19,310 bases of DNA from a virus. How positions within the stretch are numbered: position 1 is the first letter of the stretch; every line of letters starts with the position of its first letter. The stretch is from UHGV virus genome UHGV-0366180; one strand, given 5' to 3'. The notes beneath the pieces were generated by a model, which was not told the DNA's origin, made no database searches, and was given only the letters and a program-made list of their open reading frames with translations. The position numbers were made by a program, and so were the translations under genes. This document shows, one piece after another, positions 672-17,589 of this stretch.

Positions 672-690
672 TATTGCCCCTTTACATGCT

Positions 691-716
691 AAAAAGGTCT
701 CCGAAGAGACCCTTTC
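691..716 (-). terminator. Intrinsic terminator-like hairpin between the small membrane ORF and nrdD
   Basis: Minus-strand RNA reads AAAG-GGUCUC-UUCG-GAGACC-UUUUU: 6-bp GC-rich stem, extendable by G.U and three A-U pairs, UUCG tetraloop, then a U5 run. Confidence 0.45.
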
Positions 717-719
717 ATT

Positions 720-926
720 TTAAATCTTTTTAGAAAACTTCGCAAAGAGTTCTCTTAGTTTTTCAGTGATACCTAACTGTATCTCTAATATTTCGAAGAT
801 AACCCATAGTAACATGGCTCCAAACAATGAACCTTGTTCAAAGTCAGTAAATAGGTTAACGATAAGCATACCAATCACAATAGCTGGTGCATCAACAACC
901 AAACCTTCCCAAATGCGTTTAAGCAT
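720..926 (-). CDS. Small hydrophobic protein, probable membrane protein (68 aa)
   Basis: ATG at 926..924 with SD GAGGTGA 5 nt upstream; long hydrophobic stretches (AIVIGMLIVNLF, LFGAMLLWVIFEIL); overlaps the upstream gene's stop by 8 nt. Confidence 0.4.
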   Translation of the reverse strand: MLKRIWEGLVVDAPAIVIGMLIVNLFTDFEQGSLFGAMLLWVIFEILEIQLGITEKLRELFAKFSKKI

Positions 927-1161
927 TATTCACCTCTGCCATAAAATTCTGTAGCGTACCAACAGGTTTTAGGTTTTGCCCATCAGTTTTCATGATGAAT
1001 GGCATCTGACGAACTGGCATCTGTGCAATATCAATCAGGTCTGATAGTTCATAGTCCTGCCCTAACATTCTCACAACATGGTCAATACCACGAGCTTTTG
1101 CAAAATTCTTTGCAGTCTCGCACTGAGGGCATCCAGTTTTGGAGTAAATTACATAAGTCAT
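919..1161 (-). CDS. Glutaredoxin/NrdH-like redoxin (80 aa)
   Basis: CPQC active-site motif near the N-terminus (YSKTGCPQCETAK); typical size; sits immediately downstream of nrdB with its ATG overlapping the nrdB stop (TAATG); SD GAGG. Confidence 0.65.
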   Translation of the reverse strand: MTYVIYSKTGCPQCETAKNFAKARGIDHVVRMLGQDYELSDLIDIAQMPVRQMPFIMKTDGQNLKPVGTLQNFMAEVNNA

Positions 1162-2234
1162 TAAGGAACCTCTAAAAATCCACTATTCAAATCATCTACA
1201 ACAGTATTCAATAGGTACGCACCGTTCTGTTGCTCCTGATTAGCATTCTGCTCTTTATCAATTTCCATCTTCTTAATCATGTACTTCAAAGGTGGTTCTT
1301 TAGGAGCTACAAAATCTCTGGGAATGCCAAACATATCATACAGTGGGGCAGCATTATAGTAAACCCACTCATGAAGAAGCTTTGTATTTAACCCAACTAC
1401 AGCACGTCCTTCGGAGAAGATATAATACGACCATTTCTCTTCACTTTCAACTACTTCATCTAAGATTACTTTAATCTCTGGAAGAATTTGTTGGAAAGCT
1501 TTTTGCCACTCATCATCTCTTAAAGTTTCTTTTAAAACTTCAATATCAATTTTAGTGTGAAGGATTTCGTCAAGCATAATTTTCTGGACAGCTTGAGCAA
1601 TACCTTGAAATTTATCTTGAGCATCAAGTGCAAAAGTACATGCAAAAGATGCCATAAAAGAAATACCTTCAAGTGCAGTCACTGCAAATAGACCTTTTAG
1701 AATCACTTTATGGAAGTGTAAAGGGTCTTTGTCCAGAAGTGAGTCACGCACATAACTCAGACGATAGTTTATACCTTCATCCAGTAATTCTTCAAGAACA
1801 CGATTCACAGTTTTTAATCGGTCTTGCACAGCAACATTCTGGTTAATCTCATCTAAGATTGTTTCAGGGTTTTTAATACATTGCCTTACAATCTCTGAGT
1901 AAGTAAGGGCATGTAGGTTTTCAATCTCAGACTGCTTCATAATTGCAGTTGCATAGATGTCATCAGAGATGAATGGTGCAAAGGCAAACGCTAAACTCTT
2001 AGCAACTTGAGTATCTGCTTCCCATTGCCACTTAAGAATCTCAAGCATTACACCTGACATTGATGCTGGTACACTCTCAAAATCAAGACGTGATTGTTCA
2101 AAAGGGAACTCATCTTCTGACCAGTCTTGTGCTTTTTGTTGTTTATATAGCTCAAAGATTTTTGGGTAGTGCTTATTAAGTGAGTCGAATGTTTTTCTCT
2201 CACCACCTAAAAAGATTGGGTGTTGGTTAATCAT
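1161..2234 (-). CDS. nrdB: Ribonucleotide reductase class I small subunit (357 aa from the re-placed start)
   Basis: Ferritin-like R2 features (LEGISFMASFACTFAL and surrounding helices). Start moved from the ORF-track 2294 to ATG 2234..2232, which has SD AAGGAG 10 nt upstream and forms an ATGA overlap with the upstream ORF's stop. Confidence 0.85.
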   Translation of the reverse strand: MINQHPIFLGGERKTFDSLNKHYPKIFELYKQQKAQDWSEDEFPFEQSRLDFESVPASMSGVMLEILKWQWEADTQVAKSLAFAFAPFISDDIYATAIMKQSEIENLHALTYSEIVRQCIKNPETILDEINQNVAVQDRLKTVNRVLEELLDEGINYRLSYVRDSLLDKDPLHFHKVILKGLFAVTALEGISFMASFACTFALDAQDKFQGIAQAVQKIMLDEILHTKIDIEVLKETLRDDEWQKAFQQILPEIKVILDEVVESEEKWSYYIFSEGRAVVGLNTKLLHEWVYYNAAPLYDMFGIPRDFVAPKEPPLKYMIKKMEIDKEQNANQEQQNGAYLLNTVVDDLNSGFLEVP

Positions 2235-2488
2235 AGCGTGATTTCTCCTTTCTTTATCATCTCTAAGGCTTGTTTTCTGTCTAAAACTTCCCAATTTTCT
2301 TTGTTAAACATGTCATAAGGTCTTGCATAGATTTTACCATCTGCTGTAGGGATGTAAGAGACACCATCGACCCATGAGTCATCATTTTGTTTTATCATCA
2401 TATCTGTGCTACTTACATAGTACAGTGTTTTCCGAGGTTTGTGGAGCAAGTATATGGGTCTCTCATGTTTTTCTATTAAGTCTTTCAT
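2231..2488 (-). CDS. Hypothetical protein (85 aa) between nrdA and nrdB
   Basis: ATG at 2488..2486 with SD GGAG; ATGA-coupled to nrdB; no recognisable motif. Confidence 0.45.
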   Translation of the reverse strand: MKDLIEKHERPIYLLHKPRKTLYYVSSTDMMIKQNDDSWVDGVSYIPTADGKIYARPYDMFNKENWEVLDRKQALEMIKKGEITL

Positions 2489-2510
2489 AGTTTCTCCAAA
2501 GTTAATTTTA

Positions 2511-2530
2511 GAGGGTCTTTTACGACCCTC
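2511..2530 (-). other. Perfect GC-rich hairpin just downstream of the nrdA stop, without a U-tract
   Basis: GAGGGTC-TTTTAC-GACCCTC: 7-bp stem, 6-nt loop. No U-run follows on either strand, so it is not a canonical terminator. Confidence 0.4.
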
Positions 2531-2543
2531 ATAGTTATTAAAA

Positions 2544-4778
2544 CTAAACACCACAACCCTCGCAATAAGCATCTTGTAGTGCAGATTTACCTACACCAAT
2601 GCGACTGTTAAGGTAGTACATGGTTTTCATACCTACTGAGTTGGCATAAATCATATACTTCAAAGCTTGAGCCAATGATACCTTCTTCGCTTTTGCGTAG
2701 TCAACATAGAAATCTGAAGAGATAGCTTGACCAGTGAACTTTTGAACAATTGCATAACAATCAATCAGGTCAAAGGTGTCAATATCCCAAGCAATTTCAT
2801 AGACATACTTCAACTCTTCGTAATCTGGAACAATAAACAGTACGTTACCAGTTGCAGACTTTTTAGTTAAAATAAAGTCACGAATTGGATACAAGCCATT
2901 TGTTGTATTAGTTGCCAGTGAAGAACTCTCATTAGGCATGTAAGCTTCTAATACGGAGTTACGGATTCCACCATTTTCTTTAATACGTTGTGCTAAGTCA
3001 TCCCAATCATAACGAAGTTTTGCATCATGCTTCTCATCAATCTTCTTGTTAGCTGTCTTTGGAGGAACCCACCCTTCAGGATACTTAGTGAACTTCATGT
3101 ATTCTGGAACACCACGCTCTTTAGCAAGTCTCAGAGAGGCTTCATGCAGATAGTAAGAGTGCATCTCTGCAAGTTCATGAAGTTTCGTTTTACCTGCTCG
3201 TGAAGAGTAGTTCACATAGTTCTTCGCAAGGTAATGAGCCACATTTGTAAGGCCAATCCCAACAGAACGACGCTTCTGAACATGGTTACGCATCGACGGA
3301 TACGGATAATCCATAAGGTCAATAACGGAGTCAACCATTGCAAGAGCATAATAAGCAACGTCAGCGTATTCATCTTCTGAAATTCTCCCTGCAACCAAAC
3401 TAGCTAGGAAGCAAAGAGCCACCTCACCATCCTCTTTCACAGCATCGTCTCTGTAAAGGTCTGTCTCTTTCTCAAAACCATACACTGGCAACACAATTTC
3501 CATGCAAAGATTTGACATCTTCAATGGCTCTTTAAATGGTGTATGTGTGTTTGCATTGTTAGTGAAGAATGGATACACACGACCTGTAGCATAACGCTGT
3601 TGAATAAACAGTTTAGCAATTTCACGAGCCTTGACTCGTCTGTGCTTGACTCCTGAATGTACTGCGTGACCAACTGCCATAGCAAACTCATCAGCAGATG
3701 CTGTGTAGAACATGTCATAGAGTTTTGGTGCATCTTTGTAAGAGAATAGCAACCAATCCGTATCATACTGAACACACTGCCAGAAATAATCATTTGTACC
3801 GAATGAGTAGTCCATCTCGTTAATACGTTTCGAAGGAACCGTTGTAGGGTGCTTCAAACGCAGTAAATCTTCAATCTGCGGGTCTAGAGCAGTGTAGAAG
3901 TTGTTAGCTGAACCACCACGGCTCTTCTGTTTGTTTGCCTCTACAGAGGAACGTACAAGCTTGTAATAAGGCAGTTTACCCATGTGCTCAATAGTATTTT
4001 GACGGATACCATCACCAATAGTACGAGTCTCCATCAGCATCCCAATGCCAGCTTGCTTTGTAGTCATATCATAAGCAACCTTTGCAGCAATACCAAGTGA
4101 CTCAGCAGTATCATTTGCTTTAATCAAACAACATGACGCATAACCTGACTTAGTAGCACGTAAACCATTCAGATAAGGTGTAGGAGCGTTAATCTTCAGG
4201 TCAGATAGGTAAGTGTATAGCTTAATAACATCTTGCAGTCTACGGTTCTTTGGTTGCTTCTCAAAGGCTTTCATAGCCATACCCATAAACATAAATTGTG
4301 GTGACTCAAAAAGTCTTCCCGTTTTAATATCACGGATTCCATATTTATCCCTGAACTGTTTCAACACTGCATAGCCGTAAGAGATATCTTTTGAGTGCAC
4401 AATATAACCTTGCAGATATTCAAGCTCTTCCTGAGAATAGTCCATCTTCTCCCAAAGTCCTGCTCTCTCCATATTTTTAACGAAGGTAACCAGCGTAGGA
4501 ACCTTAGTAAAGCCTCCAAAGGCTTCTTTGTAGATAATCCCCAGAAGTAGCCGTCCAGCCATGTCTGAGTACTCTTGAGTTTGTTTATCAACACAAACAT
4601 CAATCATAGCTTGGTGCATCTCTTTTGTGGTGCAACCTTCATAGACACGTTTCATGGCTTCCATAGTGACTTCTGACCAGATGATTCCACGCTTATCTGC
4701 CCATGATGCCCACTTATTCAGTCTTTCTGGGTCAAAGCTTACTACTGTACCGTTTGATTTTTTAATTGTCTTAATCAT
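2544..4778 (-). CDS. nrdA: Ribonucleotide reductase class I large subunit (744 aa)
   Basis: N-terminal ATP-cone-like region (KKSNGTVVSFDPERLNKW); catalytic motif SNLCMEIVLP (class Ia NxCxE); C-terminal CxxC tail (YCEGCGV); ATG at 4778..4776. Confidence 0.9.
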   Translation of the reverse strand: MIKTIKKSNGTVVSFDPERLNKWASWADKRGIIWSEVTMEAMKRVYEGCTTKEMHQAMIDVCVDKQTQEYSDMAGRLLLGIIYKEAFGGFTKVPTLVTFVKNMERAGLWEKMDYSQEELEYLQGYIVHSKDISYGYAVLKQFRDKYGIRDIKTGRLFESPQFMFMGMAMKAFEKQPKNRRLQDVIKLYTYLSDLKINAPTPYLNGLRATKSGYASCCLIKANDTAESLGIAAKVAYDMTTKQAGIGMLMETRTIGDGIRQNTIEHMGKLPYYKLVRSSVEANKQKSRGGSANNFYTALDPQIEDLLRLKHPTTVPSKRINEMDYSFGTNDYFWQCVQYDTDWLLFSYKDAPKLYDMFYTASADEFAMAVGHAVHSGVKHRRVKAREIAKLFIQQRYATGRVYPFFTNNANTHTPFKEPLKMSNLCMEIVLPVYGFEKETDLYRDDAVKEDGEVALCFLASLVAGRISEDEYADVAYYALAMVDSVIDLMDYPYPSMRNHVQKRRSVGIGLTNVAHYLAKNYVNYSSRAGKTKLHELAEMHSYYLHEASLRLAKERGVPEYMKFTKYPEGWVPPKTANKKIDEKHDAKLRYDWDDLAQRIKENGGIRNSVLEAYMPNESSSLATNTTNGLYPIRDFILTKKSATGNVLFIVPDYEELKYVYEIAWDIDTFDLIDCYAIVQKFTGQAISSDFYVDYAKAKKVSLAQALKYMIYANSVGMKTMYYLNSRIGVGKSALQDAYCEGCGV

Positions 4779-4798
4779 TTTTGAATCCTACAGATGAG

Positions 4799-4820
4799 AA
4801 GAGCCTCCGAAGAGGCTCCC
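4799..4820 (-). terminator. Hairpin with UUCG tetraloop upstream of nrdA; weak terminator or RNA processing/stability element
   Basis: Minus RNA GAGCCUC-UUCG-GAGGCUC (7-bp stem) followed by UUCUCAUCUG, a poor U-tract. Confidence 0.35.
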
Positions 4821-4824
4821 TAGT

Positions 4825-5157
4825 TTAAATCTTGAAAATTTGCTCATTCTGCCACATATCGTAAAACTTATCACTTACCTTTGTGACTGACGAAGTGTGC
4901 ATACAATTTACGAACCATGATATATTACTATTCATAATTATTTCAAGCTGTTTTGTGACATCCACATTCATGTCTTCAACAACATAATTACCTCGCATCT
5001 TGCAAACAATTCTTCCAAACAAGATTGCACTTCTACCTCTTCGGTCATCACAGTACATAACTGTGTCCCCGTGCTTAACATCTTGTCCGAGGCTGTCAAC
5101 GCCTAACTTAGCACCTGAGACAATATCATCATAAGATAGCTTTTTTGCTTTAGACAC
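4825..5157 (-). CDS. Hypothetical protein (110 aa), probable GTG start
   Basis: ORF-track start is GTG at 5157..5155, preceded by GGAG 7 nt upstream and overlapping the upstream stop; the first in-frame ATG is much further in (residue 34). Confidence 0.4.
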   Translation of the reverse strand: MSKAKKLSYDDIVSGAKLGVDSLGQDVKHGDTVMYCDDRRGRSAILFGRIVCKMRGNYVVEDMNVDVTKQLEIIMNSNISWFVNCMHTSSVTKVSDKFYDMWQNEQIFKI

Positions 5158-5473
5158 GGTATTTCTCCAAGTTTCTTTTTAGATATAACCAACCATAGTC
5201 AGTCCTTTCTACACCCATAAAGAGTGGAGCCATCACAACTTTACCGAAAGTATTCCTGTGTTGGCAGATTTCAAAGGAATATTCTTTCTCAATGTCAATC
5301 CCGTATTTGTACAGGACTGCTTTTAAAACTTGTTCATTATCCAGAAGTGTATCTGGAGTCTCACCATACTTTTCAAGTAACGGGTCATTCATAAACACCG
5401 TCATAGAAATATTGTAGTTTGAGAAGTGGCTCTTCTGAGCCACACCCTCTTTATTAATGTTCTGTGAATCCAT
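5150..5473 (-). CDS. Hypothetical protein (107 aa)
   Basis: ATG at 5473..5471 with AAGGGG 9 nt upstream; the ORF-track start at 5482 is TTG lying directly against the SD. Confidence 0.45.
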   Translation of the reverse strand: MDSQNINKEGVAQKSHFSNYNISMTVFMNDPLLEKYGETPDTLLDNEQVLKAVLYKYGIDIEKEYSFEICQHRNTFGKVVMAPLFMGVERTDYGWLYLKRNLEKYRV

Positions 5474-6209
5474 TATAACCAACCCCTTTTAACCAGCACT
5501 TCAGGTTATTAGCATCATAATTCAGTTTCGGGTATGAGGTTACATGGAACTGCTCACCATCATAGTAGACAATATCTGCAATCCATAGTCCATTCTCTTT
5601 ACAGAAGTCTTTATCTGCTTTAGAGGTAATTGGATTAACTTCTACAAAACCATCTACACCCAAATCCTTTAAGCTACCTACAATACCTTTGCAGATAACG
5701 CATGTCTCAGATACTACCACAAAAAGTTCTTGGCTTTCAAGCTCTACAATGTATTCACCAAGCTGTACTTTAGGGAGATTTGATTGCTTCATAATCTTCC
5801 CATCGGCTGCACGGACAATCGCATACCACTCTTTACCATCAACCACTGACATTCGAATAATACACTCTTGACCAGTACGCTTTTCAATGTCTGCAAGACG
5901 TTTTAAAGCTTCTTCATAGTCATCTGTGTACTTCAGGTCATTATTATGGCAAACAGCTTCCATAGCACCGTTGTGGTCATGTTGTGACAGGTAAATCAAA
6001 CCGTCAAGAACATATTGCAAATCTGCCTGAGCATCCAATGTCTCAATGGGGTCTTTCTCTTCAATTGCTTTTACAAGCTCTTTTGCTTCTTCAAGCATAC
6101 ACAGAGATTGAGATTTTAAAGATTCCCAATACTCATTACTGTAAGGTTGCTTTTGAGTGTTTCCACAACGAAGGTTCCAGTTTTTTACTGATTCTCTTGA
6201 GTTAAACAT
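5454..6209 (-). CDS. Two-domain protein: N-terminal MazG-like all-alpha NTP pyrophosphohydrolase domain (tentative) plus uncharacterised C-terminal domain (251 aa)
   Basis: Acidic helix pattern LEEAKELVKAIEEKDPIETLDAQADLQYVLDG resembles the MazG/HisE EExxE...ExxD metal-binding signature. The C-terminal ~125 aa carries CxxC (SETCVICKG) and no motif I can name. ATG 6209..6207 with SD AAGGAG. Confidence 0.5.
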   Translation of the reverse strand: MFNSRESVKNWNLRCGNTQKQPYSNEYWESLKSQSLCMLEEAKELVKAIEEKDPIETLDAQADLQYVLDGLIYLSQHDHNGAMEAVCHNNDLKYTDDYEEALKRLADIEKRTGQECIIRMSVVDGKEWYAIVRAADGKIMKQSNLPKVQLGEYIVELESQELFVVVSETCVICKGIVGSLKDLGVDGFVEVNPITSKADKDFCKENGLWIADIVYYDGEQFHVTSYPKLNYDANNLKCWLKGVGYNGFTEH

Positions 6210-6433
6210 TCGGACTCCTTAAAATATCTGTTAACTTTTAGCTCTCGTGTTTCAATATATTCTAGATGCTCACGTAGCTCTTGACGTTTAAGCATTAGGT
6301 GCTGCATTTGAGATTCAACAGCTTCAACTTCTTTGATTATTGACTCTCTAGCATTTGCAAGGATGCGCTCAAGTTCTTCAATCTTGCTGTCAACTTTTGC
6401 TACATGACTCACAGCTTTGCTTTTGTTAAACAT
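6185..6433 (-). CDS. Hypothetical coiled-coil protein (82 aa)
   Basis: ATG at 6433..6431 (the ORF-track start is TTG at 6448); heptad-like charged sequence (IEELERILANARESIIKEVEAVE); 3' end overlaps the next gene's start by 25 nt. Confidence 0.4.
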   Translation of the reverse strand: MFNKSKAVSHVAKVDSKIEELERILANARESIIKEVEAVESQMQHLMLKRQELREHLEYIETRELKVNRYFKESECLTQENQ

Positions 6434-6454
6434 TTTATTCTCTCTCAATAGTTA

Positions 6455-6952
6455 TCAAGCACAATTTGCTTTCATTACCTTATGGATTCTTTTTTCAGCA
6501 TCTTCATAAGTTTCTTTAGTAATAAACTTAATTGCTGCAATATTGGCATTGTAGAAGAGTCTGAGCTTAGAGTCAATCCTTTTTGTCATTACATCGAATT
6601 TATGTTGAAGGTTTGCTTCACCATAGACTAGGCCACCTTTTGTGTAGTAGGTCTGAATGATGTAAAAGTCAAAAAATTCTTTTCCAAAGCTCTCAATATC
6701 TTTTTTAATATACTCAGAAGAAGTCTCGTAAGTCATCCAATCACTCTCCTTAGTGACTACCTTCTTCCGAGTCTTCCCAGCAACTTTTCTTTTTGTCACA
6801 CTGTTAAGCTGTTTCTTTCCGATATAATATTGTCCAGTCTTCTTACAGTGTACTAAATAGACAAAGCCAAAATGTTTAGTGGGGTCAACTTCCCCACATA
6901 AAGATACCCAATGACCGTAGGTGGGGCAATTTCCAAATCCTTTAATCTTCAT
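6455..6952 (-). CDS. GIY-YIG-like nuclease (165 aa); free-standing homing endonuclease or EndoII/DenA-like host-DNA nuclease
   Basis: GFVYLVHCKKTGQYYIGKK has canonical GIY...(11 aa)...YIG spacing. The motif is internal (about residue 30), as in T4 endonuclease II from memory. ATGA-coupled to the upstream HNH gene. Confidence 0.5.
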   Translation of the reverse strand: MKIKGFGNCPTYGHWVSLCGEVDPTKHFGFVYLVHCKKTGQYYIGKKQLNSVTKRKVAGKTRKKVVTKESDWMTYETSSEYIKKDIESFGKEFFDFYIIQTYYTKGGLVYGEANLQHKFDVMTKRIDSKLRLFYNANIAAIKFITKETYEDAEKRIHKVMKANCA

Positions 6953-7449
6953 TCATAAGCTTCTCCGTGATTTGAAAACTCTTTATGTAGTTCTTCTCTT
7001 TTCTTTGTGACTGCATCTTTGGCATCTTCAATACTGTCAAAATACCCCAGAAAGTGAGATACTCCGTGTGTCATAACTCTGGCCTTCCATTTTTGGTTAG
7101 CCTTATAGAAAGATACACCCTTAACTCCAGATGTGTTGTTGGAGTGTGTTCTTCTATTCCAAGAGTTTTCAGCTTGTGTGCAAACCCTTAGATTTAATCT
7201 CCGATTATCATTAGTAATGCCGTTGCGATGGTCTACTCTGTTAGGTAGAAAACCGTCTGTGTACAGGATTGCTAAATCATGAGCCATATAGGGTTTTCTT
7301 TTAATTTTTATCCTAATATAACCTCGCTTATGTGGTGTACCTGCAATGGAACCTATAACTGTTCTGTTAGCTGATTTCTTTATCCACGTAAAGACCCCTG
7401 TTTCGGGGTCATAGTGTAGATATTCTTTAAGTATCTGCTGAGTCAACAT
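6949..7449 (-). CDS. HNH endonuclease with C-terminal AP2-type DNA-binding domain (copy A)
   Basis: HNH motif VDHRNGITNDNRRLNLRVCTQAEN; AP2-like tail GVKGVSFYKANQKWKARVMTHGVSHFLGYFDSIEDAKDA. Start is ambiguous: ATG 7449 or 7464, or TTG 7473; all overlap the flap exonuclease 3' end. Confidence 0.75.
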   Translation of the reverse strand: MLTQQILKEYLHYDPETGVFTWIKKSANRTVIGSIAGTPHKRGYIRIKIKRKPYMAHDLAILYTDGFLPNRVDHRNGITNDNRRLNLRVCTQAENSWNRRTHSNNTSGVKGVSFYKANQKWKARVMTHGVSHFLGYFDSIEDAKDAVTKKREELHKEFSNHGEAYE

Positions 7450-8473
7450 TTGGAGTCCAACCATACTTTTCAAATGAAAAAATATCTGATTTATTTCGCT
7501 CTTGATAAGCTAGGAAGAAATGCTGTTCCATTAACTCTAATGGTGTTTTGGTAACAGTCTGTCCATCCCATGACACATAGGTATAAGAATCTTTTTTAGC
7601 ATAAAGTTCATAGATAGCGTCAAGACACTCTTTGTAGGTCTCTTTACCCTCTAAAGCATTCATCACAGCTACTTTACCAGCACCTTTTAGGCCGAAGTAG
7701 TTGTCTGCATTATCTCCAGCAACAGCCTGATAACACAAGAATTTAAAACCTACGCCAACTGTTTTTGCAGCTTTTGGTTTTGATTTGATAGGGCAATCCC
7801 AGATATCACCAACATTATTGTCAGCAATAAAAATTAGTGGTGACTTTTCATAAGTCATATCAATACAATAAGTTCCTTCAGCTTGTCGAAGGTCTTTGTC
7901 AATACTCATAAGAGCAGCTTTCTTACCCATCTTTTCAGCTTTAGCGATTACGATTGAATCGGCTTCGAAGCCCCCCTTTAAGAGCTTAAACTCTGGTCTT
8001 GACAGAAGGTATTCACGACAAGCAACTAAGTGTGTTGGTGTGACAGCATCTTTACGGTTGCCTTGATATTGGTGCTCAAGACCTTTAACGTCTTTATGTT
8101 TATGCACACCTTTCTCTGTTAAATAGCCTACCCAAGTTCTCTCTTTCCCAACAACCTTAAGCCATTCCTGAAGCACCTGTTGAGTAGCCATGATAGCTTC
8201 TTTTTCACTCTTAGCTTCTTTCCAAGTCTGTCTTTCCCATTCATCTTCATCAAATGTCAGGCCAAGCTCTTCCACAAGGATTCTCTGGTCTGCTAACCAT
8301 CTTGCAGCATCTTTCGCATTATCAAATGGTTCAGATTCTTCTGCTGTGAGTTTATTAACGTATTTATACTTTGCTTTCTCAACTACACAAGCACCTTTAT
8401 AGGCAATGCTGTCAGAGTCAATAAAGACATGTGTAACTGAATCGGGAAGCTTTGTTAATGTGTACTTCTCCAT
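7427..8473 (-). CDS. 5'-3' exonuclease / flap endonuclease (FEN, RNase H-like; T7 gp6 / T4 RNase H class), 348 aa
   Basis: N-terminal PIN-like VFIDSDSIAYKGA; downstream AGDNADNYFGLKGAGKVAV resembling the GDxxDN helix-hairpin-helix region of phage FEN nucleases; ATG 8473..8471 with SD GGAG. Confidence 0.75.
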   Translation of the reverse strand: MEKYTLTKLPDSVTHVFIDSDSIAYKGACVVEKAKYKYVNKLTAEESEPFDNAKDAARWLADQRILVEELGLTFDEDEWERQTWKEAKSEKEAIMATQQVLQEWLKVVGKERTWVGYLTEKGVHKHKDVKGLEHQYQGNRKDAVTPTHLVACREYLLSRPEFKLLKGGFEADSIVIAKAEKMGKKAALMSIDKDLRQAEGTYCIDMTYEKSPLIFIADNNVGDIWDCPIKSKPKAAKTVGVGFKFLCYQAVAGDNADNYFGLKGAGKVAVMNALEGKETYKECLDAIYELYAKKDSYTYVSWDGQTVTKTPLELMEQHFFLAYQERNKSDIFSFEKYGWTPNVDSADT

Positions 8474-8491
8474 TATGGCTCTCCATATGAA

Positions 8492-8518
8492 AAAGCCCCA
8501 TACTAAGTACAGGGCTTT
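8492..8518 (-). terminator. Strong intrinsic terminator downstream of the SSB gene
   Basis: Minus RNA AAAGCCCUGUAC-UUA-GUAUGGGGCUUU followed by UUC: 12-bp stem including two G.U pairs, 3-nt loop, U5 run. Confidence 0.6.
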
Positions 8519-8535
8519 AAAGTAACTTTTAGAGA

Positions 8536-9393
8536 TTAGTCTTCTGTATCGAAGTCTTCATCTTCTTCGTCATCTGGGTCTGGCAAGTCTTCATCGTCAC
8601 CATCATCAGAATCATTCGAAGATTTATGGTCTGTTGCGTCTTCTTCAGTGATTTCACCGTTATCTTCGACACCATCAAGACCAAGCATAGCCAGTTCATC
8701 TTCATCCAGTTCAGGTTCACCGTTAGCACCGTTACCACCAGTGTAAGGTACAAGAGTATCAATGATAAACTGTTCCTGAATAGGCTTTGTCAAGACATTG
8801 TTCTCAAAAGTGTAGAAGTGAGTAGAAAGAATCACACTACCAAAAGAACCGTTACCAACTGCAATATCTGGATGAATTACATCATAGTTCTTATCATCTT
8901 CATGTTTGTCAGATGCTTGAGCTTTGATTTTCTTCATCGGCTGCTTAACAGCTACACGCTTACCATTTACTTCTTCAATCAGCATTACAGGGAATGACTG
9001 TTTAGCTGTCCATACAGCACCATCTTTATAAGCTGCTGCACGACTTACTTTCAAGATGTAGTAAGTGTCTGCTTCAAATGGTGGTTTGCAACCAAACTTC
9101 TCTTCGAAGTCATCTGCATCAACTGCTTCAGTGGTAACTTTATCCCAACCTTCTGGGTTTTTCTTAGACTTAGTAAACTCTTTAAACAGCTTGTTACCAT
9201 CTTCTGCCAGAATTGAAACGCTGTAGTTACAGTCTTTGCCTGGGAATTTCTTATCAATGGACTTGCCTTTTCCCGGACGTGGTGAAGTGTTCAGGTAATA
9301 AAACCAGACATCTTTCAGCAGGTAACGCAAAGTTTGACGCTCAGTACCATTGTACTTCTCTACCGGAGCTTTCATTTTAACAACTTTAGACAT
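8536..9393 (-). CDS. Single-stranded DNA-binding protein with acidic C-terminal tail (T7 gp2.5-like), 285 aa
   Basis: The final ~45 residues are almost entirely Asp/Glu and end ...DEEDEDFDTED, the hallmark of phage SSB tails. Position in a T7-type replisome cluster, with its own promoter and terminator. The OB-fold itself was not verifiable by eye. Confidence 0.6.
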   Translation of the reverse strand: MSKVVKMKAPVEKYNGTERQTLRYLLKDVWFYYLNTSPRPGKGKSIDKKFPGKDCNYSVSILAEDGNKLFKEFTKSKKNPEGWDKVTTEAVDADDFEEKFGCKPPFEADTYYILKVSRAAAYKDGAVWTAKQSFPVMLIEEVNGKRVAVKQPMKKIKAQASDKHEDDKNYDVIHPDIAVGNGSFGSVILSTHFYTFENNVLTKPIQEQFIIDTLVPYTGGNGANGEPELDEDELAMLGLDGVEDNGEITEEDATDHKSSNDSDDGDDEDLPDPDDEEDEDFDTED

Positions 9394-9429
9394 TATTTAA
9401 ACCTCTATCTCAATTTATGAAGAGTACCA

Positions 9430-9458
9430 ATTCTAATTTGTTGATACTCTATTGTCAA
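9430..9458 (-). promoter_or_regulatory. Sigma70-type promoter driving the SSB gene
   Basis: Minus strand TTGACA (9458..9453), 17-nt spacer, TAGAAT (9435..9430); about 35 nt upstream of the SSB ATG. Confidence 0.5.
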
Positions 9459-9465
9459 ACATTAA

Positions 9466-9615
9466 TTACTGGAAGTTGTGCTTATCTTTAGAAGCTGCTT
9501 TACGTGCAGTTTTTCCAGTTCTTACACGCTTCTCTTCATAGTATTTTGCTGGTTTACCAGCAGTGGCTTTTAAGGAATCCCCAAAAACTTTTTCAAATGC
9601 TTTAGAGTGTTTCAT
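9466..9615 (-). CDS. Small basic protein (49 aa), absent from the ORF track because it is under 60 aa
   Basis: ATG 9615..9613 with SD GGAG 7 nt upstream, ATGA-coupled to the upstream ORF; hand translation MKHSKAFEKVFGDSLKATAGKPAKYYEEKRVRTGKTARKAASKDKHNFQ, stop TAA 9468..9466. Confidence 0.35.
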   Translation of the reverse strand: MKHSKAFEKVFGDSLKATAGKPAKYYEEKRVRTGKTARKAASKDKHNFQ

Positions 9616-9893
9616 GATATTCTCCGATATACTTGATATTCAAACACATTTTCTTTAATTATAAAGAGCCAACCAATATTATGTTTAGGTATAGTAATGG
9701 TGACTGTGATTATGCTGTGATGGAACTTTTCTTCTGCCTCAACGCCTCCATCACATTTCATGTAGAGCATTCTATAGAACCTATCAACCTTTGTCAAACA
9801 CTCTTCCTGAAATTCATTTAAACTTTTTTCTTCAAAGAATGGTATGAACCCCTCTCTTTTATAACTGTCACTCAGTTTCAAACGGGCAGTCAT
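9612..9893 (-). CDS. Hypothetical protein (93 aa)
   Basis: ATG at 9893..9891 has GAGG 6 nt upstream; the ORF-track GTG at 9905 and the first ATG at 9899 lie too close to that SD. Overlaps the primase-helicase 3' end by 26 nt. Confidence 0.4.
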   Translation of the reverse strand: MTARLKLSDSYKREGFIPFFEEKSLNEFQEECLTKVDRFYRMLYMKCDGGVEAEEKFHHSIITVTITIPKHNIGWLFIIKENVFEYQVYRRIS

Positions 9894-11853
9894 CTGCATC
9901 CTCACTTAATACAGGTGGAATCGTTGAGCTTTGACGCTGTTCTTCAGTATAGACTTCACCAGTCTCACGGTCAAATACTTCATCCTCATAATGAGGTAAA
10001 GAGTCGTCATAATGGTCTTCATCTTCACCAATACCAAACTGTTGACGAATATTTTCTGCTGCACCATCAATGTCAACACCACATCCAGAAGCTTTGATGA
10101 GACGTCCTGTATCTGGATTGTACCAAGTATGACCAGCAATACCTGTTGACTTACCATGACGACGACACTTAGTTAACTTGATTTTTGTCAAGTTTTTCTT
10201 AACAGGGTCTGGGTCAACCTTGTTACGCATTAACAGAATGTTGTTCATAGAAATCTGGAAGTATGCACCAGAACCCTTAATATCCTCTTCAGAGATATCT
10301 CCACCTTCAGAGTTAGCTTTCTGACCACCTGCACTCTTACGAACGTGACATACGTTTACCTGCGCATACTGGTAGCGTTTGCAACGACGCAATAGCTCAG
10401 ACAAAACTTCTTCTTCATCCGTATCAGAACGTGACAGGGCTAACGTGATAGGGTCAAGAATGATAATCTTACAGTCTAAACTGTTAACAAGATAGTCAAC
10501 AAACTCTAGCAGGTTATCTTGGTCAATTGCCCCTTGATGGTCAACGATATGGATACGACGGCCTTTAGATAGTTCTGCGTGTGCTCCTTTTAATTCATCC
10601 CAATCCCGTTCATCATAAGGAATCTCAGAAATCTGCTTGCTCAGGTGGATTGCACAGAGCATCTCCATCAACTCTTCATAGGTATCTTCTACAGGAATTA
10701 CACCGATATTATAATCAGTTTCTTTCCAAGCTGAGTAAATCATCTCACGAGTGTAAGCTGACTTACCTACTGAAGATGGTGCTGCAATAGTTGTAATCTC
10801 ACCTAAACCGTAACCACCATAAGTCAGCCTGTTCAAATCTCCGAAAGATTCTGGGAAAGGAATCAATGGAATCTGACCACGATTCTTCATTGCCTCAAAA
10901 CCATCTGCGAAGTTCTTGATACCAGCAGGGCAGTAACGTGGTGCATTGTAGATACGCTGCTTAAATCCTTCCAGAACTGTATCTTTTTCTTTATAGAACT
11001 TTGTCCACCATTCGTTAAGGTCTTTTACACCTTCTGGATACTGGAATAAACGAACCTTCTCAATAGGTAGGATACCAGCAGCCTCTTTAGTGGCTTTAGC
11101 ACCTGCTTCATCGTTATCAAAGCACAAGTAAATCTCATCAAATGATGTAATGTACTGATAGTTATCCTTGATAGACTTGATGTTTGCACCTGATGGAACA
11201 GATACGTGACAGTAATTCTTACGACGAGATTTGTCCTTAATCGCAAGAGAAGTCATATAGATTGCTGTCGCACATTCCATCTCACCTTCCCAGATGAATA
11301 GACGGTTACCACCTTCTGGAGCAATCCATGAACCGAACATTGCCAGTTCACCTTTAATGTCTCCAACACCACCAGAAAAGTCTTTTAACTTACCTCGTAG
11401 GTGCTCTTTTGGGTGGTCTTCTGGGTAACGGTGACGAACACGGTATCCAACATGCTCTAGCTTGCCATCTTCATTGCGTTTGTAAGTTGGGTAGAAATGC
11501 GCGTCAATTTCACCATCACTGTCAATGTCAACCTTGATACCCAAACGCTCAAGAACTTTTGCAGGGATTTTCCTGTCTTTCAAGTCCATTGCTTCAAGGT
11601 TTTCTTTCACATCGTCTAAATCCATTCCACGGAAAGTACGGTTTTTATTGTCTGAACCAGTAGAATAAGTGCTCACGATTTGTCCTTTATCAAAATCCCA
11701 CTCTGGGAAACCTTTGTTACAGCTAAAGCAAGTCATCGAATAAGAATCATCGTCATGATGATAGATTGAACCAGCATCTGATGAACCACAACGTGGACAT
11801 GCACAATGACCAATAAACTGACCAGCCTCTTTCAATTTACGACCTTTAGACAT
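9868..11853 (-). CDS. Bifunctional DNA primase-helicase (T7 gp4-type), 661 aa
   Basis: N-terminal Cys4 zinc ribbon (CPRCGSSD...CFSCNK); TOPRIM motifs (IWEGEMECATA, CFDNDEAG); Walker A GxxxxGKS (IAAPSSVGKSAYT) and Walker B-like KIIILDPITL. ATG 11853..11851 with SD AGAGGTG; the ORF-track start at 11859 is GTG. Confidence 0.85.
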   Translation of the reverse strand: MSKGRKLKEAGQFIGHCACPRCGSSDAGSIYHHDDDSYSMTCFSCNKGFPEWDFDKGQIVSTYSTGSDNKNRTFRGMDLDDVKENLEAMDLKDRKIPAKVLERLGIKVDIDSDGEIDAHFYPTYKRNEDGKLEHVGYRVRHRYPEDHPKEHLRGKLKDFSGGVGDIKGELAMFGSWIAPEGGNRLFIWEGEMECATAIYMTSLAIKDKSRRKNYCHVSVPSGANIKSIKDNYQYITSFDEIYLCFDNDEAGAKATKEAAGILPIEKVRLFQYPEGVKDLNEWWTKFYKEKDTVLEGFKQRIYNAPRYCPAGIKNFADGFEAMKNRGQIPLIPFPESFGDLNRLTYGGYGLGEITTIAAPSSVGKSAYTREMIYSAWKETDYNIGVIPVEDTYEELMEMLCAIHLSKQISEIPYDERDWDELKGAHAELSKGRRIHIVDHQGAIDQDNLLEFVDYLVNSLDCKIIILDPITLALSRSDTDEEEVLSELLRRCKRYQYAQVNVCHVRKSAGGQKANSEGGDISEEDIKGSGAYFQISMNNILLMRNKVDPDPVKKNLTKIKLTKCRRHGKSTGIAGHTWYNPDTGRLIKASGCGVDIDGAAENIRQQFGIGEDEDHYDDSLPHYEDEVFDRETGEVYTEEQRQSSTIPPVLSEDADDCPFETE

Positions 11854-12040
11854 TAGCACCTCTTCGTTGTAGTTCTGCTTTTAATCCATTTTCAATCTTG
11901 TCCAGCTCATGAATTTCATCTGCAATCTCTTTCCTTCGTGATTCAACTCTCTTAAGACGTTCAATCATTACCTCATTGGAAAGAGATGAGAGTTCCACTA
12001 AACGGTGGTCAATAACTTTAAAATTGTCTTTTACTCTCAT
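11846..12040 (-). CDS. Hypothetical small coiled-coil protein (64 aa)
   Basis: ATG 12040..12038 with GAGAGG 6 nt upstream; overlaps the primase-helicase start by 8 nt. Confidence 0.4.
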   Translation of the reverse strand: MRVKDNFKVIDHRLVELSSLSNEVMIERLKRVESRRKEIADEIHELDKIENGLKAELQRRGANV

Positions 12041-12054
12041 CTTCATCCTCTCTT

Positions 12055-12798
12055 TTAAACTTTAATGATGGCTCTTAGCTTGTTCTCAAGGTCTGCAAGA
12101 GTACCATTATTATGAATAATGTCACGCTCATATTTTGTAGAAATCCCATTTTCTGAAACATGTGATGAAACTTTGTCCACATTGTCTCTTTTTACTTCAA
12201 TAGTTTGGTGTGCAAATCTACTCAGCCATTCAGCTTCAGAGTCAAATCTTAAATCACTGATTAAGACAAAACCATATTGGTTTCTAAGTGAGCACATTTC
12301 ATGGAATCTAACCATTCTTTTTTCAAGGTCTTTAGACCAGAACTTGTCGCCCATTACTTTACGGACAACTTCAGTACCCCAAACCTGTTGAATTTGTCTT
12401 GATGAGAATTTATACTTTTTACTAAACCCCAGACGTGTCAATAGAGTCGGTTTAGCAACCTTCTTAAGCTCCATGATTAATCGTCCAGTTAACTCTGACA
12501 TAAGCTTGAAGTCCATATGGTAACGTTCATCTCTGAAGGTGAACTCCATAGCTTCCGTAACTTTAAACATCAGTTCAGAGTATGATAAGTCAAAAACCTG
12601 TGGAGTCTCTTTAGTTTCACCGTACAGGTCATTCCAAGTCAAGTCAAATATCTTTGATGCAGATAGTTTAAGGTTGTCTGCAAAGGCCATTACAGCAACA
12701 TTGTAGCCATACTCATCCTCTAAGATGTTCTTCACAATAGAACATGAGGTGTCTTTTCCAGAACGTGCCTTTCCAGTAAATGCAATAATATTACTCAT
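12055..12798 (-). CDS. Deoxynucleoside monophosphate kinase (T4 gp1-like), 247 aa
   Basis: P-loop IIAFTGKARSGKDT closely matches the T4 dNMP kinase P-loop as I recall it (FLSGVKRSGKDT); ATG 12798..12796 with SD AAGGGAGA. Confidence 0.65.
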   Translation of the reverse strand: MSNIIAFTGKARSGKDTSCSIVKNILEDEYGYNVAVMAFADNLKLSASKIFDLTWNDLYGETKETPQVFDLSYSELMFKVTEAMEFTFRDERYHMDFKLMSELTGRLIMELKKVAKPTLLTRLGFSKKYKFSSRQIQQVWGTEVVRKVMGDKFWSKDLEKRMVRFHEMCSLRNQYGFVLISDLRFDSEAEWLSRFAHQTIEVKRDNVDKVSSHVSENGISTKYERDIIHNNGTLADLENKLRAIIKV

Positions 12799-12815
12799 TT
12801 TATCTCCCTTAATTA

Positions 12816-12842
12816 CTAAAAAGCCCCCAACTAAGGAGGCTT
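12816..12842 (-). terminator. Intrinsic terminator between the acidic protein gene and dNMP kinase
   Basis: Minus RNA AAGCCUCC-UUAGUU-GGGGGCUU followed by UUUAG: 8-bp stem with one G.U pair, 6-nt loop, U5 run. Confidence 0.5.
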
Positions 12843-12859
12843 GTAAGATTTATAAAGAC

Positions 12860-13660: not shown

Positions 13661-13661
13661 A

Positions 13662-17564: not shown

Positions 17565-17589
17565 CAAGGTGCTCAGGGAAGAGTACCTT
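17561..17589 (+). promoter_or_regulatory. Weak candidate sigma70 promoter overlapping the HNH stop
   Basis: Perfect -35 TTGACA at 17561-17566; the only -10-like hexamer at 17-nt spacing is TACCTT (17584-17589); TATACT sits at a 22-nt spacing, too far. Confidence 0.25.

What the first reader, a model, noticed from the sequence alone, without database searches (positions are those of the whole stretch)
691..12842. Family of GC-rich hairpins and intrinsic terminators punctuating the minus-strand gene train
In an AT-rich background there are discrete GC-rich stem-loops at gene junctions: 691-716 (UUCG loop plus U5), 2511-2530 (no U-tract), 4799-4820 (UUCG loop, weak U-tract), 8492-8518 (12-bp stem plus U5), 12816-12842 (8-bp stem plus U5). 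Several stems share related cores (GGTCTC/GAGACC, GAGCCTC/GAGGCTC, GAGGGTC/GACCCTC, and GACCCC/GGGGTC inside the HNH genes). Each sits immediately upstream of the next gene's Shine-Dalgarno, which suggests attenuation or mRNA processing and stability control rather than full stops, partitioning the replication genes into differently expressed units.
Basis: seen in the sequence. Interest (0 to 1): 0.5.

Follow-up and report, generated by a model that had tools for sequence, protein, structure and literature searches.

The report
Known terminator hairpins of a Felix-O1-like phage
The GC-rich hairpins between the replication genes are real and conserved, but they are the ordinary predicted transcription terminators already tabulated for phage Felix O1 and its relatives, so the finding is sound but not new.

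Summary
The window is the replication and nucleotide-metabolism module of a Felixounavirus, about 96% identical to Escherichia phage ekra. All five hairpins exist as described. They are the five most stable simple hairpins on the sense strand of 1-14084 (shuffles give 0.56), and all lie in the 2.7% of that stretch that is intergenic. Each ends 18-22 nt before the next start codon. They fold better on the sense strand. Orthologous hairpins sit at the same junctions in four Ounavirinae genera (three junctions in the Erwinia phage) and, for one junction, a Yersinia relative, with compensatory stem changes, variable loops and one non-homologous replacement.

They are already on record. The Felix O1 paper lists three as rho-independent terminators (t116, t111, t104), and the Michonne record annotates four as terminators. 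Three are canonical. One (4799-4820) has a U-tract weakened by a T-to-C change in this lineage. One (2511-2530) never has an adjacent U-tract.

Because no promoter fits between hairpin and start codon, nrdD, nrdA, the exonuclease and the dNMP kinase need read-through. The "leaky stop" reading is therefore a sound inference, but it is untested.

The GACCCC/GGGGTC hairpin inside the HNH genes is held by rare synonymous codons. It resembles the terminators inside T4 mobE and segF.

The parts
691..717 (-). H1: A-tract, GGGUCUC-UUCG-GAGACC(U) stem-loop and U5. It starts 2 nt after the stop of the small membrane-protein gene and ends 19 nt before the nrdD ATG (671). Equals Felix O1 terminator t116.
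   Evidence: -15.8 kcal/mol, z -4.6; t116 ggtctcttcggagaccttttt; Michonne 'terminator' feature; identical stem in Felixouna-, Moogle- and Suspvirus; antisense only -8.8.
2511..2530 (-). H2: GAGGGUC-GUAAAA-GACCCUC, with no adjacent U-tract. It starts 13 nt after the nrdA stop and ends 22 nt before the likely true ATG (2488) of a small ORF that precedes nrdB.
   Evidence: (-14.4, z -4.4). It is conserved in three genera. The Erwinia phage has a different stem (GGGUCGG/CCGACCC) after nrdA. Two Suspvirus-like contigs (L027, L028) have an unrelated GGGGCU-GAAA-AGCCCC hairpin there. It is not annotated as a terminator in any record seen.
4799..4820 (-). H3: GGGAGCCUC-UUCG-GAGGCUCUU. It starts 4 nt after the upstream stop and ends 20 nt before the nrdA ATG. 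The U-tract is weakened here (UUCUCAUC). Equals Felix O1 t111.
   Evidence: -14.8; t111; terminator features; most relatives have UUUUCAUC; the T-to-C change is in 2 of 29 loci; 100% pairing in 6 distinct sequences, 2 pairs with compensatory changes.
8492..8518 (-). H4: 12-bp stem AAAGCCCUGUAC-UUA-GUAUGGGGCUUU and a U-tract, ending 18 nt before the exonuclease ATG. Equals Felix O1 t104. It closes a unit that starts at the promoter at 9458-9430.
   Evidence: -15.2; t104; Yersinia and Erwinia orthologous hairpins with other sequences; stem variable in 1 of 24 columns against 28 of 41 for loop and other intergenic columns, p = 2.5e-7; antisense -10.9.
12816..12842 (-). H5: AAGCCUCC-UUAGUU-GGGGGCUU and U5, ending 22 nt before the dNMP-kinase ATG. 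It is not in the Felix O1 table but is annotated as a terminator in Moogle and Michonne.
   Evidence: -13.9; Erwinia AGCCCC-UUAAUU-GGGGCU plus U5 at the same junction; near-duplicate at ekra 87085; antisense -9.6.
7393..7410 (-). Hairpin GACCCC-GAAACA-GGGGUC inside HNH gene 1 (codons DPETGV). It starts 16 nt after the exonuclease stop, at +39 of the likely HNH start (ATG 7449). The tail is UUUACGUG.
   Evidence: (-19.9 with an outer stem, z -5.4).
17091..17108 (+). The same hairpin inside HNH gene 2. It starts 49 nt after the DNA-polymerase stop, at +39 of the likely HNH start (ATG 17052). The tail is UUUACUUG.
   Evidence: (flagged as terminator-like).
9421..9458 (-). Sigma-70-like promoter TTGACA-N17-TAGAAT in the only long minus-strand intergenic gap without a strong hairpin. 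It carries a covarying dyad, AGAGTATC/GGTACTCT.
   Evidence: 11 of 12 match; TTGACA kept in Felixouna-, Moogle- and Suspvirus and in the Yersinia phage; the Erwinia phage has TATTGCA there; dyad arms change together.
17561..17589 (+). TTGACA followed by the dyad AAGGTGCTC-AGGGAA-GAGTACCTT, with no U-tract. This is a junction hairpin that is promoter-associated rather than a terminator.
   Evidence: -12.1; the same element lies directly after the polymerase stop in genomes without this HNH gene; TTGACAAGGTG recurs in ekra intergenic regions.

Best explanation
**What the hairpins are.** H1, H4 and H5 are canonical intrinsic (Rho-independent) terminator hairpins of a Felix-O1-like phage, transcribed by host RNA polymerase. 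Each has an A-tract, a GC-rich stem, a short loop and a U5 tract. H3 is the same kind with a U-tract degraded in this lineage.

**How they probably work.** They sit between cistrons of one long co-directional gene train, and no promoter fits between hairpin and next start codon. They must therefore let a fraction of polymerases through.
- They act as partial terminators that step transcript abundance down along the train.
- They leave the upstream message with a 3' stem-loop that resists 3'-5' exonucleases.
- H1 and H3 start only 2-4 nt after the upstream stop codon. A terminating ribosome could cover their 5' arm and lower termination further.

**H2.** It has no adjacent U-tract in any lineage. 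It is more likely an mRNA 3'-end or stability hairpin, or a very weak pause or terminator, placed between nrdA and nrdB.

**The HNH hairpin.** The GACCCC/GGGGTC hairpin at +39 of the HNH homing-endonuclease ORFs is a nucleotide-level element. It most likely plays the same role just downstream of the exonuclease and polymerase genes, while throttling endonuclease expression.

**Shown versus inferred.** Shown here: existence, non-randomness, strand specificity, positional conservation with compensatory change, and the obligate pass-through geometry. Inferred: termination itself, its efficiency, the stabilising role and the ribosome effect.
For: **Identity**
- The window is a Felixounavirus.

**Non-randomness**
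- These are the five strongest sense-strand hairpins, all intergenic, and far above shuffle expectation.

**Strand specificity**
- Sense-strand folds are more stable than antisense folds: -15.8 vs -8.8, -15.2 vs -10.9, -13.9 vs -9.6, -14.8 vs -12.6 and -14.4 vs -13.4 kcal/mol. G.U pairs account for the difference.

**Terminator anatomy**
- H1, H4 and H5 each have an A-tract, stem and U5 tract.

**Conservation**
- A hairpin sits at the same junction in Felixouna-, Moogle- and Suspvirus (all five), in Kolesnikvirus (H2-H5) and in Yersinia P778 (H4), with different stem sequences.
- H3 has 2 compensatory pairs and 100% pairing.
- The H4 stem varies in 1 of 24 columns while its loop varies in 5 of 5.
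- H2 is replaced by an unrelated hairpin in L027 and L028.

**Prior annotation as terminators**
- Felix O1 Table 2 lists t104, t111 and t116. The same paper states that how transcription gets past the many terminators is unknown.
- Moogle and Michonne carry 'terminator' features at these junctions.

**Genome-wide picture**
- In ekra, intergenic DNA is 9.8% of the genome but holds 23 of the 38 hairpin entries with dG <= -12 (each strand counted). I count about 25 co-oriented junction hairpin sites, mostly with U-tracts, including 5 cUUCGg loops.

**Read-through geometry**
- Only 18-22 nt separate each stem from the next ATG.

**T4 precedent**
- T4 uses the same architecture of GC stem, 4-nt loop and poly(U). 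T4 mobE and segF carry terminators in the 5' end of their ORFs, and about 30% of transcripts stop at the mobE one.

**HNH hairpin**
- Codons at shared residues inside the motif are identical in every pair of six diverged genes, against about 35-59% outside it in pairs of diverged genes.
- The codons used are the rarest in the window: CCC is 4% of Pro codons, GGG 8% of Gly and GTC 13% of Val.
- Loop codons vary between genes.
Against: - There is no transcript 3'-end, coverage or half-life data for any Felixounavirus in the library searched. Termination and leakiness are therefore not demonstrated.
- U-tracts are short. H1, H4 and H5 have five U, H3 has UUCUCAUC here, and H2 has none, so some may barely terminate.
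- The Felix O1 RT-PCR classes change at only two of the four junctions that can be compared, and the assay is coarse.
- Covariation counts are small: few independent lineages, and H1 is invariant.
- The peptide YDPETGVF is widespread, and elsewhere its codons are hairpin-compatible only at the chance rate, 7 of 113 contexts. The HNH hairpin is therefore lineage-specific and could partly reflect shared ancestry of a short patch.
Confidence: 0.72

Rival explanations
1. The hairpins do not terminate transcription. They act purely after transcription. They could block 3'-5' exonucleases after endonucleolytic cleavage, or protect the 5' end of the downstream cistron, so that segments of one polycistronic RNA have different half-lives.
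For: H2 and its replacements never have an adjacent U-tract, yet a hairpin is kept at that junction in every lineage examined. H3 tolerates loss of U-tract quality in this lineage. All downstream genes need transcripts that cross the hairpins. UUCG tetraloops give extra stability.
Against: H1, H4 and H5 keep an A-tract and a U5 tract directly after the stem in the genera where they occur, which a pure decay barrier does not need. The U5 tract after the H4 stem shows no variable column in the alignment of 24 distinct sequences. Termination and 3' protection are not mutually exclusive.
Confidence: 0.2
2. The hairpins are operators for an RNA-binding translational regulator, in the manner of T4 gp43 or RegA. 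They would sit just upstream of the Shine-Dalgarno sequence to control initiation of the next gene.
For: The spacing from stem to start codon is a constant 18-22 nt. T4 DNA polymerase binds a hairpin upstream of its own ribosome-binding site.
Against: Stem and loop sequences differ between junctions and between genera at the same junction. One was replaced by an unrelated hairpin. H4 loops vary freely. A sequence-specific operator would not tolerate this. The constant spacing is explained by a U-tract plus a Shine-Dalgarno sequence plus a spacer.
Confidence: 0.04
3. They are DNA-level elements, such as cruciforms or recombination or homing-endonuclease target sites, rather than RNA structures.
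For: Homing-endonuclease genes are numerous in this module. Other dyads in the window overlap promoter-like elements and probably act as DNA.
Against: G.U pairs make the structures markedly stronger on the sense strand than on the complement. U-tracts are oriented with transcription. Stems change by RNA-compatible substitutions such as G-C to G-U.
Confidence: 0.03
4. The HNH-internal palindrome is only a by-product of a conserved peptide (YDPETGVF) and a shared ancestral or gene-converted patch. It would have no function at the RNA level.
For: The peptide occurs in at least 113 distinct viral contexts with free codon choice, and 7 of 113 are hairpin-compatible, which is about the chance rate. 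All Ounavirinae copies are homologous genes.
Against: The genes are only 36-58% identical in protein. About 35-59% of codons at shared residues outside the motif are identical, but all are identical inside it. The stems use the rarest codons of the genome. The exact codon set GAC-CCC-GGG-GTC is expected at 1.7e-4 from the window's codon usage. The loop codons changed non-synonymously while both arms stayed the same. That pattern fits a selected hairpin, not a converted patch.
Confidence: 0.3

Closest known systems
Predicted rho-independent terminators of phage Felix O1 (t104, t111, t116; Whichard et al. 2010, Viruses 2:710, Table 2) and 'terminator' features in the Citrobacter phage Moogle and Michonne GenBank records
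   Same: These are the same elements. t116 ggtctcttcggagaccttttt is H1, t111 gagcctcttcggaggctctttt is H3, and t104 gccctgtacttagtatggggcttttt is H4. The Michonne record marks terminators at the H1, H3, H4 and H5 junctions, and Moogle at H3, H4 and H5.
   Different: H5 is absent from the Felix O1 table. H2 is not annotated anywhere I looked. The window's H3 has a T-to-C change in its U-tract. All published calls are predictions, and none has been tested.
E. coli-type intrinsic terminators as used by phage T4, including intercistronic C(UUCG)G tetraloop hairpins
   Same: [quoted passage not shown] The UUCG tetraloop closed by C-G was first found in T4 mRNA, and H1 and H3 have exactly this loop.
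   Different: Only 2 of the 5 have UUCG. The others have 3- or 6-nt loops. U-tracts are short (5 U). No experimental mapping exists for this phage group.
Intragenic 5' terminators of the free-standing homing-endonuclease genes mobE and segF in T4
   Same: A terminator-like hairpin lies in the 5' end of the coding region of a free-standing HNH endonuclease gene that sits just after a nucleotide-metabolism or replication gene. The weak poly(U) tract is also shared. In T4 mobE about 30% of transcripts stop there, and the proposed roles are limiting read-through and endonuclease expression.
   Different: Here the hairpin is built from the codons of a conserved peptide motif (DPxxGV). It is the same 6-bp stem in several diverged paralogues at different insertion sites. 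Its tail is only UUUAC. Function has not been tested.
Phage T7 RNase III processing sites and other long intercistronic stem-loops
   Same: They share an intercistronic position in a polycistronic phage transcript and a proposed effect on differential mRNA stability.
   Different: RNase III sites are stems of about 20 bp or more, often with an internal loop (my own knowledge). These stems are 6-12 bp, which is too short.

Membership tests
Intrinsic (Rho-independent) terminator | GC-rich stem of at least about 5-6 bp with a short loop (3-8 nt) | tested here: met
   All five qualify, with 7-12 bp stems and loops of 3-6 nt.
Intrinsic (Rho-independent) terminator | U-rich tract immediately 3' of the stem | tested here: inconclusive
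   Met for H1 (UUUUUAGC), H4 (UUUUUCAU) and H5 (UUUUUAGU). Marginal for H3 here (UUCUCAUC, against UUUUCAUC in most relatives). Not met for H2 (UAAAAUUA) in any lineage.
Intrinsic (Rho-independent) terminator | Lies downstream of a stop codon, co-oriented with the gene, and folds on the transcribed strand | tested here: met
   The hairpins start 2-17 nt after the stop codons. The sense strand is more stable than the antisense in all five.
Intrinsic (Rho-independent) terminator | RNA 3' ends or release of RNA polymerase at the U-tract | not testable with these tools
   No transcriptome for Felixounavirus was found in the paper library. This needs Term-seq or in vitro transcription.
C(UUCG)G tetraloop hairpin (T4 type) | UUCG loop closed by a C-G pair | tested here: met
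   Met by H1 and H3 only. The ekra genome has 5 such intergenic hairpins and one cUACGg. H2, H4 and H5 do not have it.
Homing-endonuclease intragenic 5' terminator (T4 mobE/segF type) | Stable hairpin with a (weak) U-tract in the 5' part of a free-standing endonuclease ORF | tested here: met
   GACCCC-N6-GGGGUC lies at +39 of both HNH ORFs, with tails UUUACUUG and UUUACGUG. Nucleotide-level conservation goes beyond what the protein needs.
Homing-endonuclease intragenic 5' terminator (T4 mobE/segF type) | A measurable fraction of transcripts ends there | not testable with these tools
   There are no transcript data.
RNase III processing site | Roughly 20 bp or more of double-stranded RNA | tested here: not met
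   The longest stem is 12 bp, including A-U and G.U pairs.
Classical attenuator (leader with alternative antiterminator) | A mutually exclusive alternative helix, or a leader peptide, that controls terminator formation | not tested
   Minimum-energy folds of the intergenic regions show only the terminator hairpin, but no dedicated search for alternative pairings was made.
Any curated RNA family (Rfam 15) | Match to a covariance model | tested here: not met
   The only match was one chance-level hit, E = 0.84. No tRNA genes were found.

The most novel reading that the evidence does not exclude
The invariant GACCCC-N6-GGGGTC hairpin may be a portable RNA element that travels inside the coding sequence of an HNH-AP2 homing-endonuclease family in Ounavirinae. 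It is written in the rarest codons of the genome, always at +39 of the ORF.

Wherever the endonuclease gene lands, directly after an essential gene (here the exonuclease and the DNA polymerase), it would do two things. It would give that gene a 3' hairpin or weak terminator, and it would throttle the endonuclease's own expression.

A related, less likely reading concerns the junction hairpins without U-tracts (2511-2530) and the promoter-embedded dyads (9421-9458, 17561-17589). These may be sites for an unidentified phage regulator.
Probability: 0.3. Interest if true: 0.45.

Novelty: already known. Interest (0 to 1): 0.2.

Why it matters
As it stands, the finding adds little. These hairpins are the predicted terminators already tabulated for Felix O1 and annotated in relatives.

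What this analysis adds is comparative evidence that they are under selection as sense-strand RNA structures across the subfamily. It also makes explicit that the essential genes behind them can only be expressed by read-through. The Felix O1 authors raised this question in 2010 and it remains open. Felix O1 and its relatives are used for Salmonella typing and biocontrol, so a transcript map with measured terminator strengths would help in engineering them.

The one point with some wider interest is the hairpin inside the homing-endonuclease genes. It is held by synonymous codons, and it would be a second, independent example of the mobE/segF arrangement known from T4.

Tried and rejected
- **Rfam scan of the whole window at E <= 1.** It returned only a chance snoRNA hit. 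There are no tRNA genes.
- **Literature search for a Felixounavirus or Felix O1 transcriptome.** Nothing usable was found. The Argonaute paper only uses Felix O1 as a challenge phage.
- **IMG/VR scans with the NrdA and exonuclease proteins.** These returned almost only close relatives from Felixouna-, Moogle- and Suspvirus. They added loop and flank variants but little deep covariation.
- **The idea that the hairpin in the HNH genes is a family-wide RNA feature.** Rejected. Among 113 distinct viral contexts that encode YDPETGVF, only 7 are hairpin-compatible, which is the chance rate. The element is specific to Ounavirinae.
- **H2 as a promoter.** A TAAAAT follows the stem, but there is no acceptable -35 element at 16-18 nt, so this was rejected by inspection.
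- **RNase III sites.** The stems are too short.
- **'Shared core' as evidence of common descent.** I did not pursue this statistically. Identical or near-identical terminators recur, but about 7 free GC-biased positions plus a selected UUCG loop make convergence plausible (my estimate).
- **Overall promoter-like matches in the window.** These equal shuffle expectation, 52 against 49.4. Only the 11-of-12 matches were considered.

Full report
**Source of the window.** The window is about 96% identical over 97% of its length to Felixounavirus genomes, for example Escherichia phage ekra MN850644.
- From ekra's annotation, bases 1-14084 are a minus-strand gene train. It runs nrdD, a small membrane protein, glutaredoxin, nrdB, a small ORF, nrdA, several small ORFs, a MazG-like gene, a GIY-YIG and an HNH homing endonuclease, a 5'-3' exonuclease, small ORFs, primase/helicase, dNMP kinase and two further ORFs.
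- From 14312 a plus-strand train starts with DNA polymerase and a second HNH gene.

**The observation.**
- Minimum free energies are -13.9 to -15.8 kcal/mol, with z-scores of -2.2 to -4.6 against dinucleotide shuffles of the same 41-49 nt.
- I enumerated every ungapped hairpin (stem of at least 5 bp, loop 3-8 nt) on the minus strand of 1-14084. The five are exactly the five with dG <= -12.5. Two hundred dinucleotide shuffles of that strand gave 0.56 +/- 0.73, never more than 3.
- All five lie in the 381 nt (2.7%) that is intergenic, which has a chance probability of about 1.4e-8.
- Of the six intergenic gaps longer than 40 nt, five hold one of these hairpins. The sixth (9394-9465) holds TTGACA-N17-TAGAAT, the best sigma-70-like match in the window.
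- Each stem ends 18-22 nt before the next start codon. The space between is filled by the U-tract and a Shine-Dalgarno sequence.
- The structures are strand-specific. Sense and antisense energies are -15.8/-8.8, -14.4/-13.4, -14.8/-12.6, -15.2/-10.9 and -13.9/-9.6 kcal/mol, because several pairs are G.U.

**What is already on record.** Table 2 of the Felix O1 genome paper lists t116 (ggtctcttcggagaccttttt), t111 (gagcctcttcggaggctctttt) and t104 (gccctgtacttagtatggggcttttt). These are H1, H3 and H4.
- The same paper says it is not known how transcription gets past the numerous rho-independent terminators, whether by read-through or by secondary promoters downstream.
- The GenBank record of Citrobacter phage Michonne carries 'terminator' features at the junctions before nrdD, nrdA, the exonuclease and the dNMP kinase. 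Moogle carries three of these.
- Only H2 is not annotated anywhere I looked.

**Comparative evidence.** I fetched the homologous module from Felix O1, ekra, Moogle, Michonne, Sf14, ESh19 (Mooglevirus), SUSP1 and EP1 (Suspvirus), Erwinia phage vEam_PM_27 (Kolesnikvirus) and Yersinia phage P778. I added about 60 loci from IMG/VR. A hairpin sits at the same junction wherever the junction exists.
- **H1** has the same core stem (GGGTCTC-TTCG-GAGACC) in the three genera where the junction exists, so it gives no covariation signal.
- **H3** is GAGCCTC/GAGGCTC in Felixounavirus, GGGTCTC/GAGACCC in Moogle- and Suspvirus, and GGACTC/GAGTCC in the Erwinia phage, always around cUUCGg. Six distinct sequences pair at 100% of cells, and two pairs show compensatory changes.
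- **H4** keeps its stem while the loop runs through UUA, UCC, UCA, UAU, AGAAC and AGAC. In 24 distinct sequences the stem varies in 1 of 24 columns, against 28 of 41 for loop plus other intergenic columns (p = 2.5e-7). The Yersinia and Erwinia phages have different stems at the same place.
- **H5** is AAGCCUCC/GGGGGCUU in three genera and AGCCCC/GGGGCU in the Erwinia phage, always with U5.
- **H2** is conserved in three genera. The Erwinia phage has another stem there (GGGUCGG/CCGACCC). Two Suspvirus-like contigs have an unrelated GGGGCU-GAAA-AGCCCC hairpin. None of these has a U-tract of five directly after the stem.
- These patterns show selection for a sense-strand RNA hairpin at each junction.

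**Genome-wide context.** Intergenic DNA is 9.8% of the ekra genome but holds 23 of the 38 hairpin entries with dG <= -12, counting each strand separately.
- I count about 25 co-oriented junction hairpin sites. Most have U-tracts.
- Five have cUUCGg loops and one has cUACGg, although the hexamer CTTCGG is not enriched overall.
- Near-identical terminators recur. AGGCTCC-TTCG-GGAGCCT occurs twice, and an H5-like AGCCTCC-TTAATT-GGGGGCT lies at the right end of the genome. H3 of Moogle equals H1.
With about seven free GC-biased positions and a favoured tetraloop, I cannot separate common descent from convergence.

**Mechanism.** H1, H4 and H5 have the full anatomy of an intrinsic terminator: an A-tract, a GC stem, a short loop and a U5 tract. 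H3 has it in most relatives (UUUUCAUC) but carries a T-to-C change here (UUCUCAUC), seen in 2 of 29 loci.
- No promoter can fit in the 18-22 nt before each start codon. Transcripts for nrdD, nrdA, the exonuclease and the dNMP kinase must therefore cross the hairpins. The hairpins cannot be full stops. This is an inference from geometry, not a measurement.
- H1 and H3 begin 2 and 4 nt after the upstream stop codon. A terminating ribosome could cover their 5' arm, which is also an inference.
- Felix O1 RT-PCR classes differ across t104 (gene 104 middle, 105 early) and t116 (115 middle, 117 late), but not across t111 or the H5 junction (my mapping of gene numbers).
- The T4 literature describes the same architecture and use.
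- H2 fails the U-tract criterion in every lineage. It is better read as a stability or 3'-end hairpin between nrdA and nrdB.
- No experiment on any of these sites was found.

**The hairpin inside the HNH genes.** GACCCC-GAAACA-GGGGTC encodes DPETGV of the motif YDPETGVF.
- That peptide is widespread. In 113 distinct viral contexts its codons vary freely, and only 7 are hairpin-compatible, about the chance rate.
- Within Ounavirinae the picture is different. Six HNH genes at two insertion sites share only 36-58% protein identity, apart from one orthologous pair. In every pair they use identical codons at all shared residues in the motif. Outside the motif, the figure for diverged genes is about 35-59%.
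- The codons are the rarest in the window: CCC is 4% of Pro, GGG 8% of Gly and GTC 13% of Val. The exact codon set GAC-CCC-GGG-GTC is expected at 1.7e-4.
- The loop codons changed the protein (GAAACA, GAAATA, GATACA, TTAACA) while both arms stayed the same. The Michonne version even extends the stem to 7 bp.
- The hairpin starts at +39 of the likely true start codons (17052 and 7449). That places it 16 nt after the exonuclease stop and 49 nt after the polymerase stop, with UUUAC tails.
- T4 mobE and segF have intrinsic terminators in the 5' end of their ORFs, and about 30% of transcripts stop at the mobE one. That is the closest precedent. Function here is untested.

**Not every junction dyad is a terminator.**
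- The TGA within that TTGACA is the HNH stop codon.
- In genomes that lack this HNH gene, the same element sits directly after the polymerase stop.
- The promoter at 9458-9430 also carries a dyad whose arms change together across genera.

**Verdict.** The elements are already published as predicted terminators of Felix O1-like phages and belong to a textbook class, so interest is low. The synonymous-codon hairpin in the homing-endonuclease genes is the only part that merits a small follow-up.

Noticed in passing
window 7393-7410 (-) and 17091-17108 (+): The GACCCC/GGGGTC arms inside the HNH genes are held by the genome's rarest synonymous codons in six diverged Ounavirinae HNH genes, while the loop codons change the protein. 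The hairpin always lies at +39 of the likely start codon.
   Followed up: yes
window 17561-17589 (+): TTGACA is followed by the dyad AAGGTGCTC/GAGTACCTT, and the TGA within TTGACA serves as the HNH stop codon. In Moogle, Sf14 and ESh19, which lack this HNH gene, the same element follows the polymerase stop directly. The endonuclease gene therefore appears to be inserted exactly between the polymerase stop and this promoter-like element. The Yersinia and Erwinia phages have TTGACG or TTGACA plus a different dyad at the same place.
   Followed up: partly
window 9421-9458 (-): The sigma-70-like promoter TTGACA-N17-TAGAAT carries an 8-bp dyad (AGAGTATC/GGTACTCT) that spans the spacer and the -10 element. 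The arms covary across genera: GGAGTAC/GTACTCC in Mooglevirus, GTGAGGGTA/TACTCTCAC in the Yersinia phage, GGTGGGTA/TACTCACC in the Erwinia phage. This could be a regulator site or a structure in read-through RNA.
   Followed up: partly
window 9419-9428 and 17578-17587 (+ strand): The exact 10-mer GAAGAGTACC occurs in both promoter-associated dyads. There are 5 hits with at most 1 mismatch in the window, against 0.97 expected.
   Followed up: partly
window 14259-14281 (-); ekra 37689, 80009, 40981, 21941: An extended -35-like motif, CTTGACAAGGTG, recurs in intergenic regions of the ekra genome. It includes two tandem TTGACA boxes in the divergent region between the minus-strand train and the polymerase. 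It may be the phage's early-promoter signature. The -10 elements are poor, and the simple scan missed them.
   Followed up: no
window 2231-2572, 17013-17564, 6949-7473: Three start codons are probably mis-set in some records. The small ORF after nrdA most likely starts at ATG 2488 (SD GGAG), not 2572, which would overlap nrdA and swallow H2. HNH gene 2 most likely starts at ATG 17052, not TTG 17013. HNH gene 1 most likely starts at ATG 7449.
   Followed up: partly
L006 11783-11848 (Erwinia phage) compared with window 8492-8518: The Erwinia H4 (GGGTATGGGG-GTTT-CCCTGTACCC) looks like an arm-swapped version of the Felixounavirus H4 (GCCCTGTAC-TTA-GTATGGGGC). Both keep a tandem U.G/G.U in mid-stem.
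   Followed up: no
ekra genome 2320-2340, 4408-4427, 7025-7045 (-), outside the window: Three copies of a junction hairpin without a U-tract, GGGGAGG(G)-AATGA-CC(T)TCCCC followed by ACTAAATAAA or ACTACATAAA, lie in the early small-ORF region. Two copies of GGGGCTTAAGA...TTTTAAGCCCC fold better on the antisense strand.
   Followed up: no
window 4799-4806: The H3 U-tract carries a T-to-C change (UUUUCAUC to UUCUCAUC). It is shared with only 2 of the 29 IMG/VR loci (variant first seen in L025), and would be expected to weaken termination before nrdA in this lineage.
   Followed up: partly
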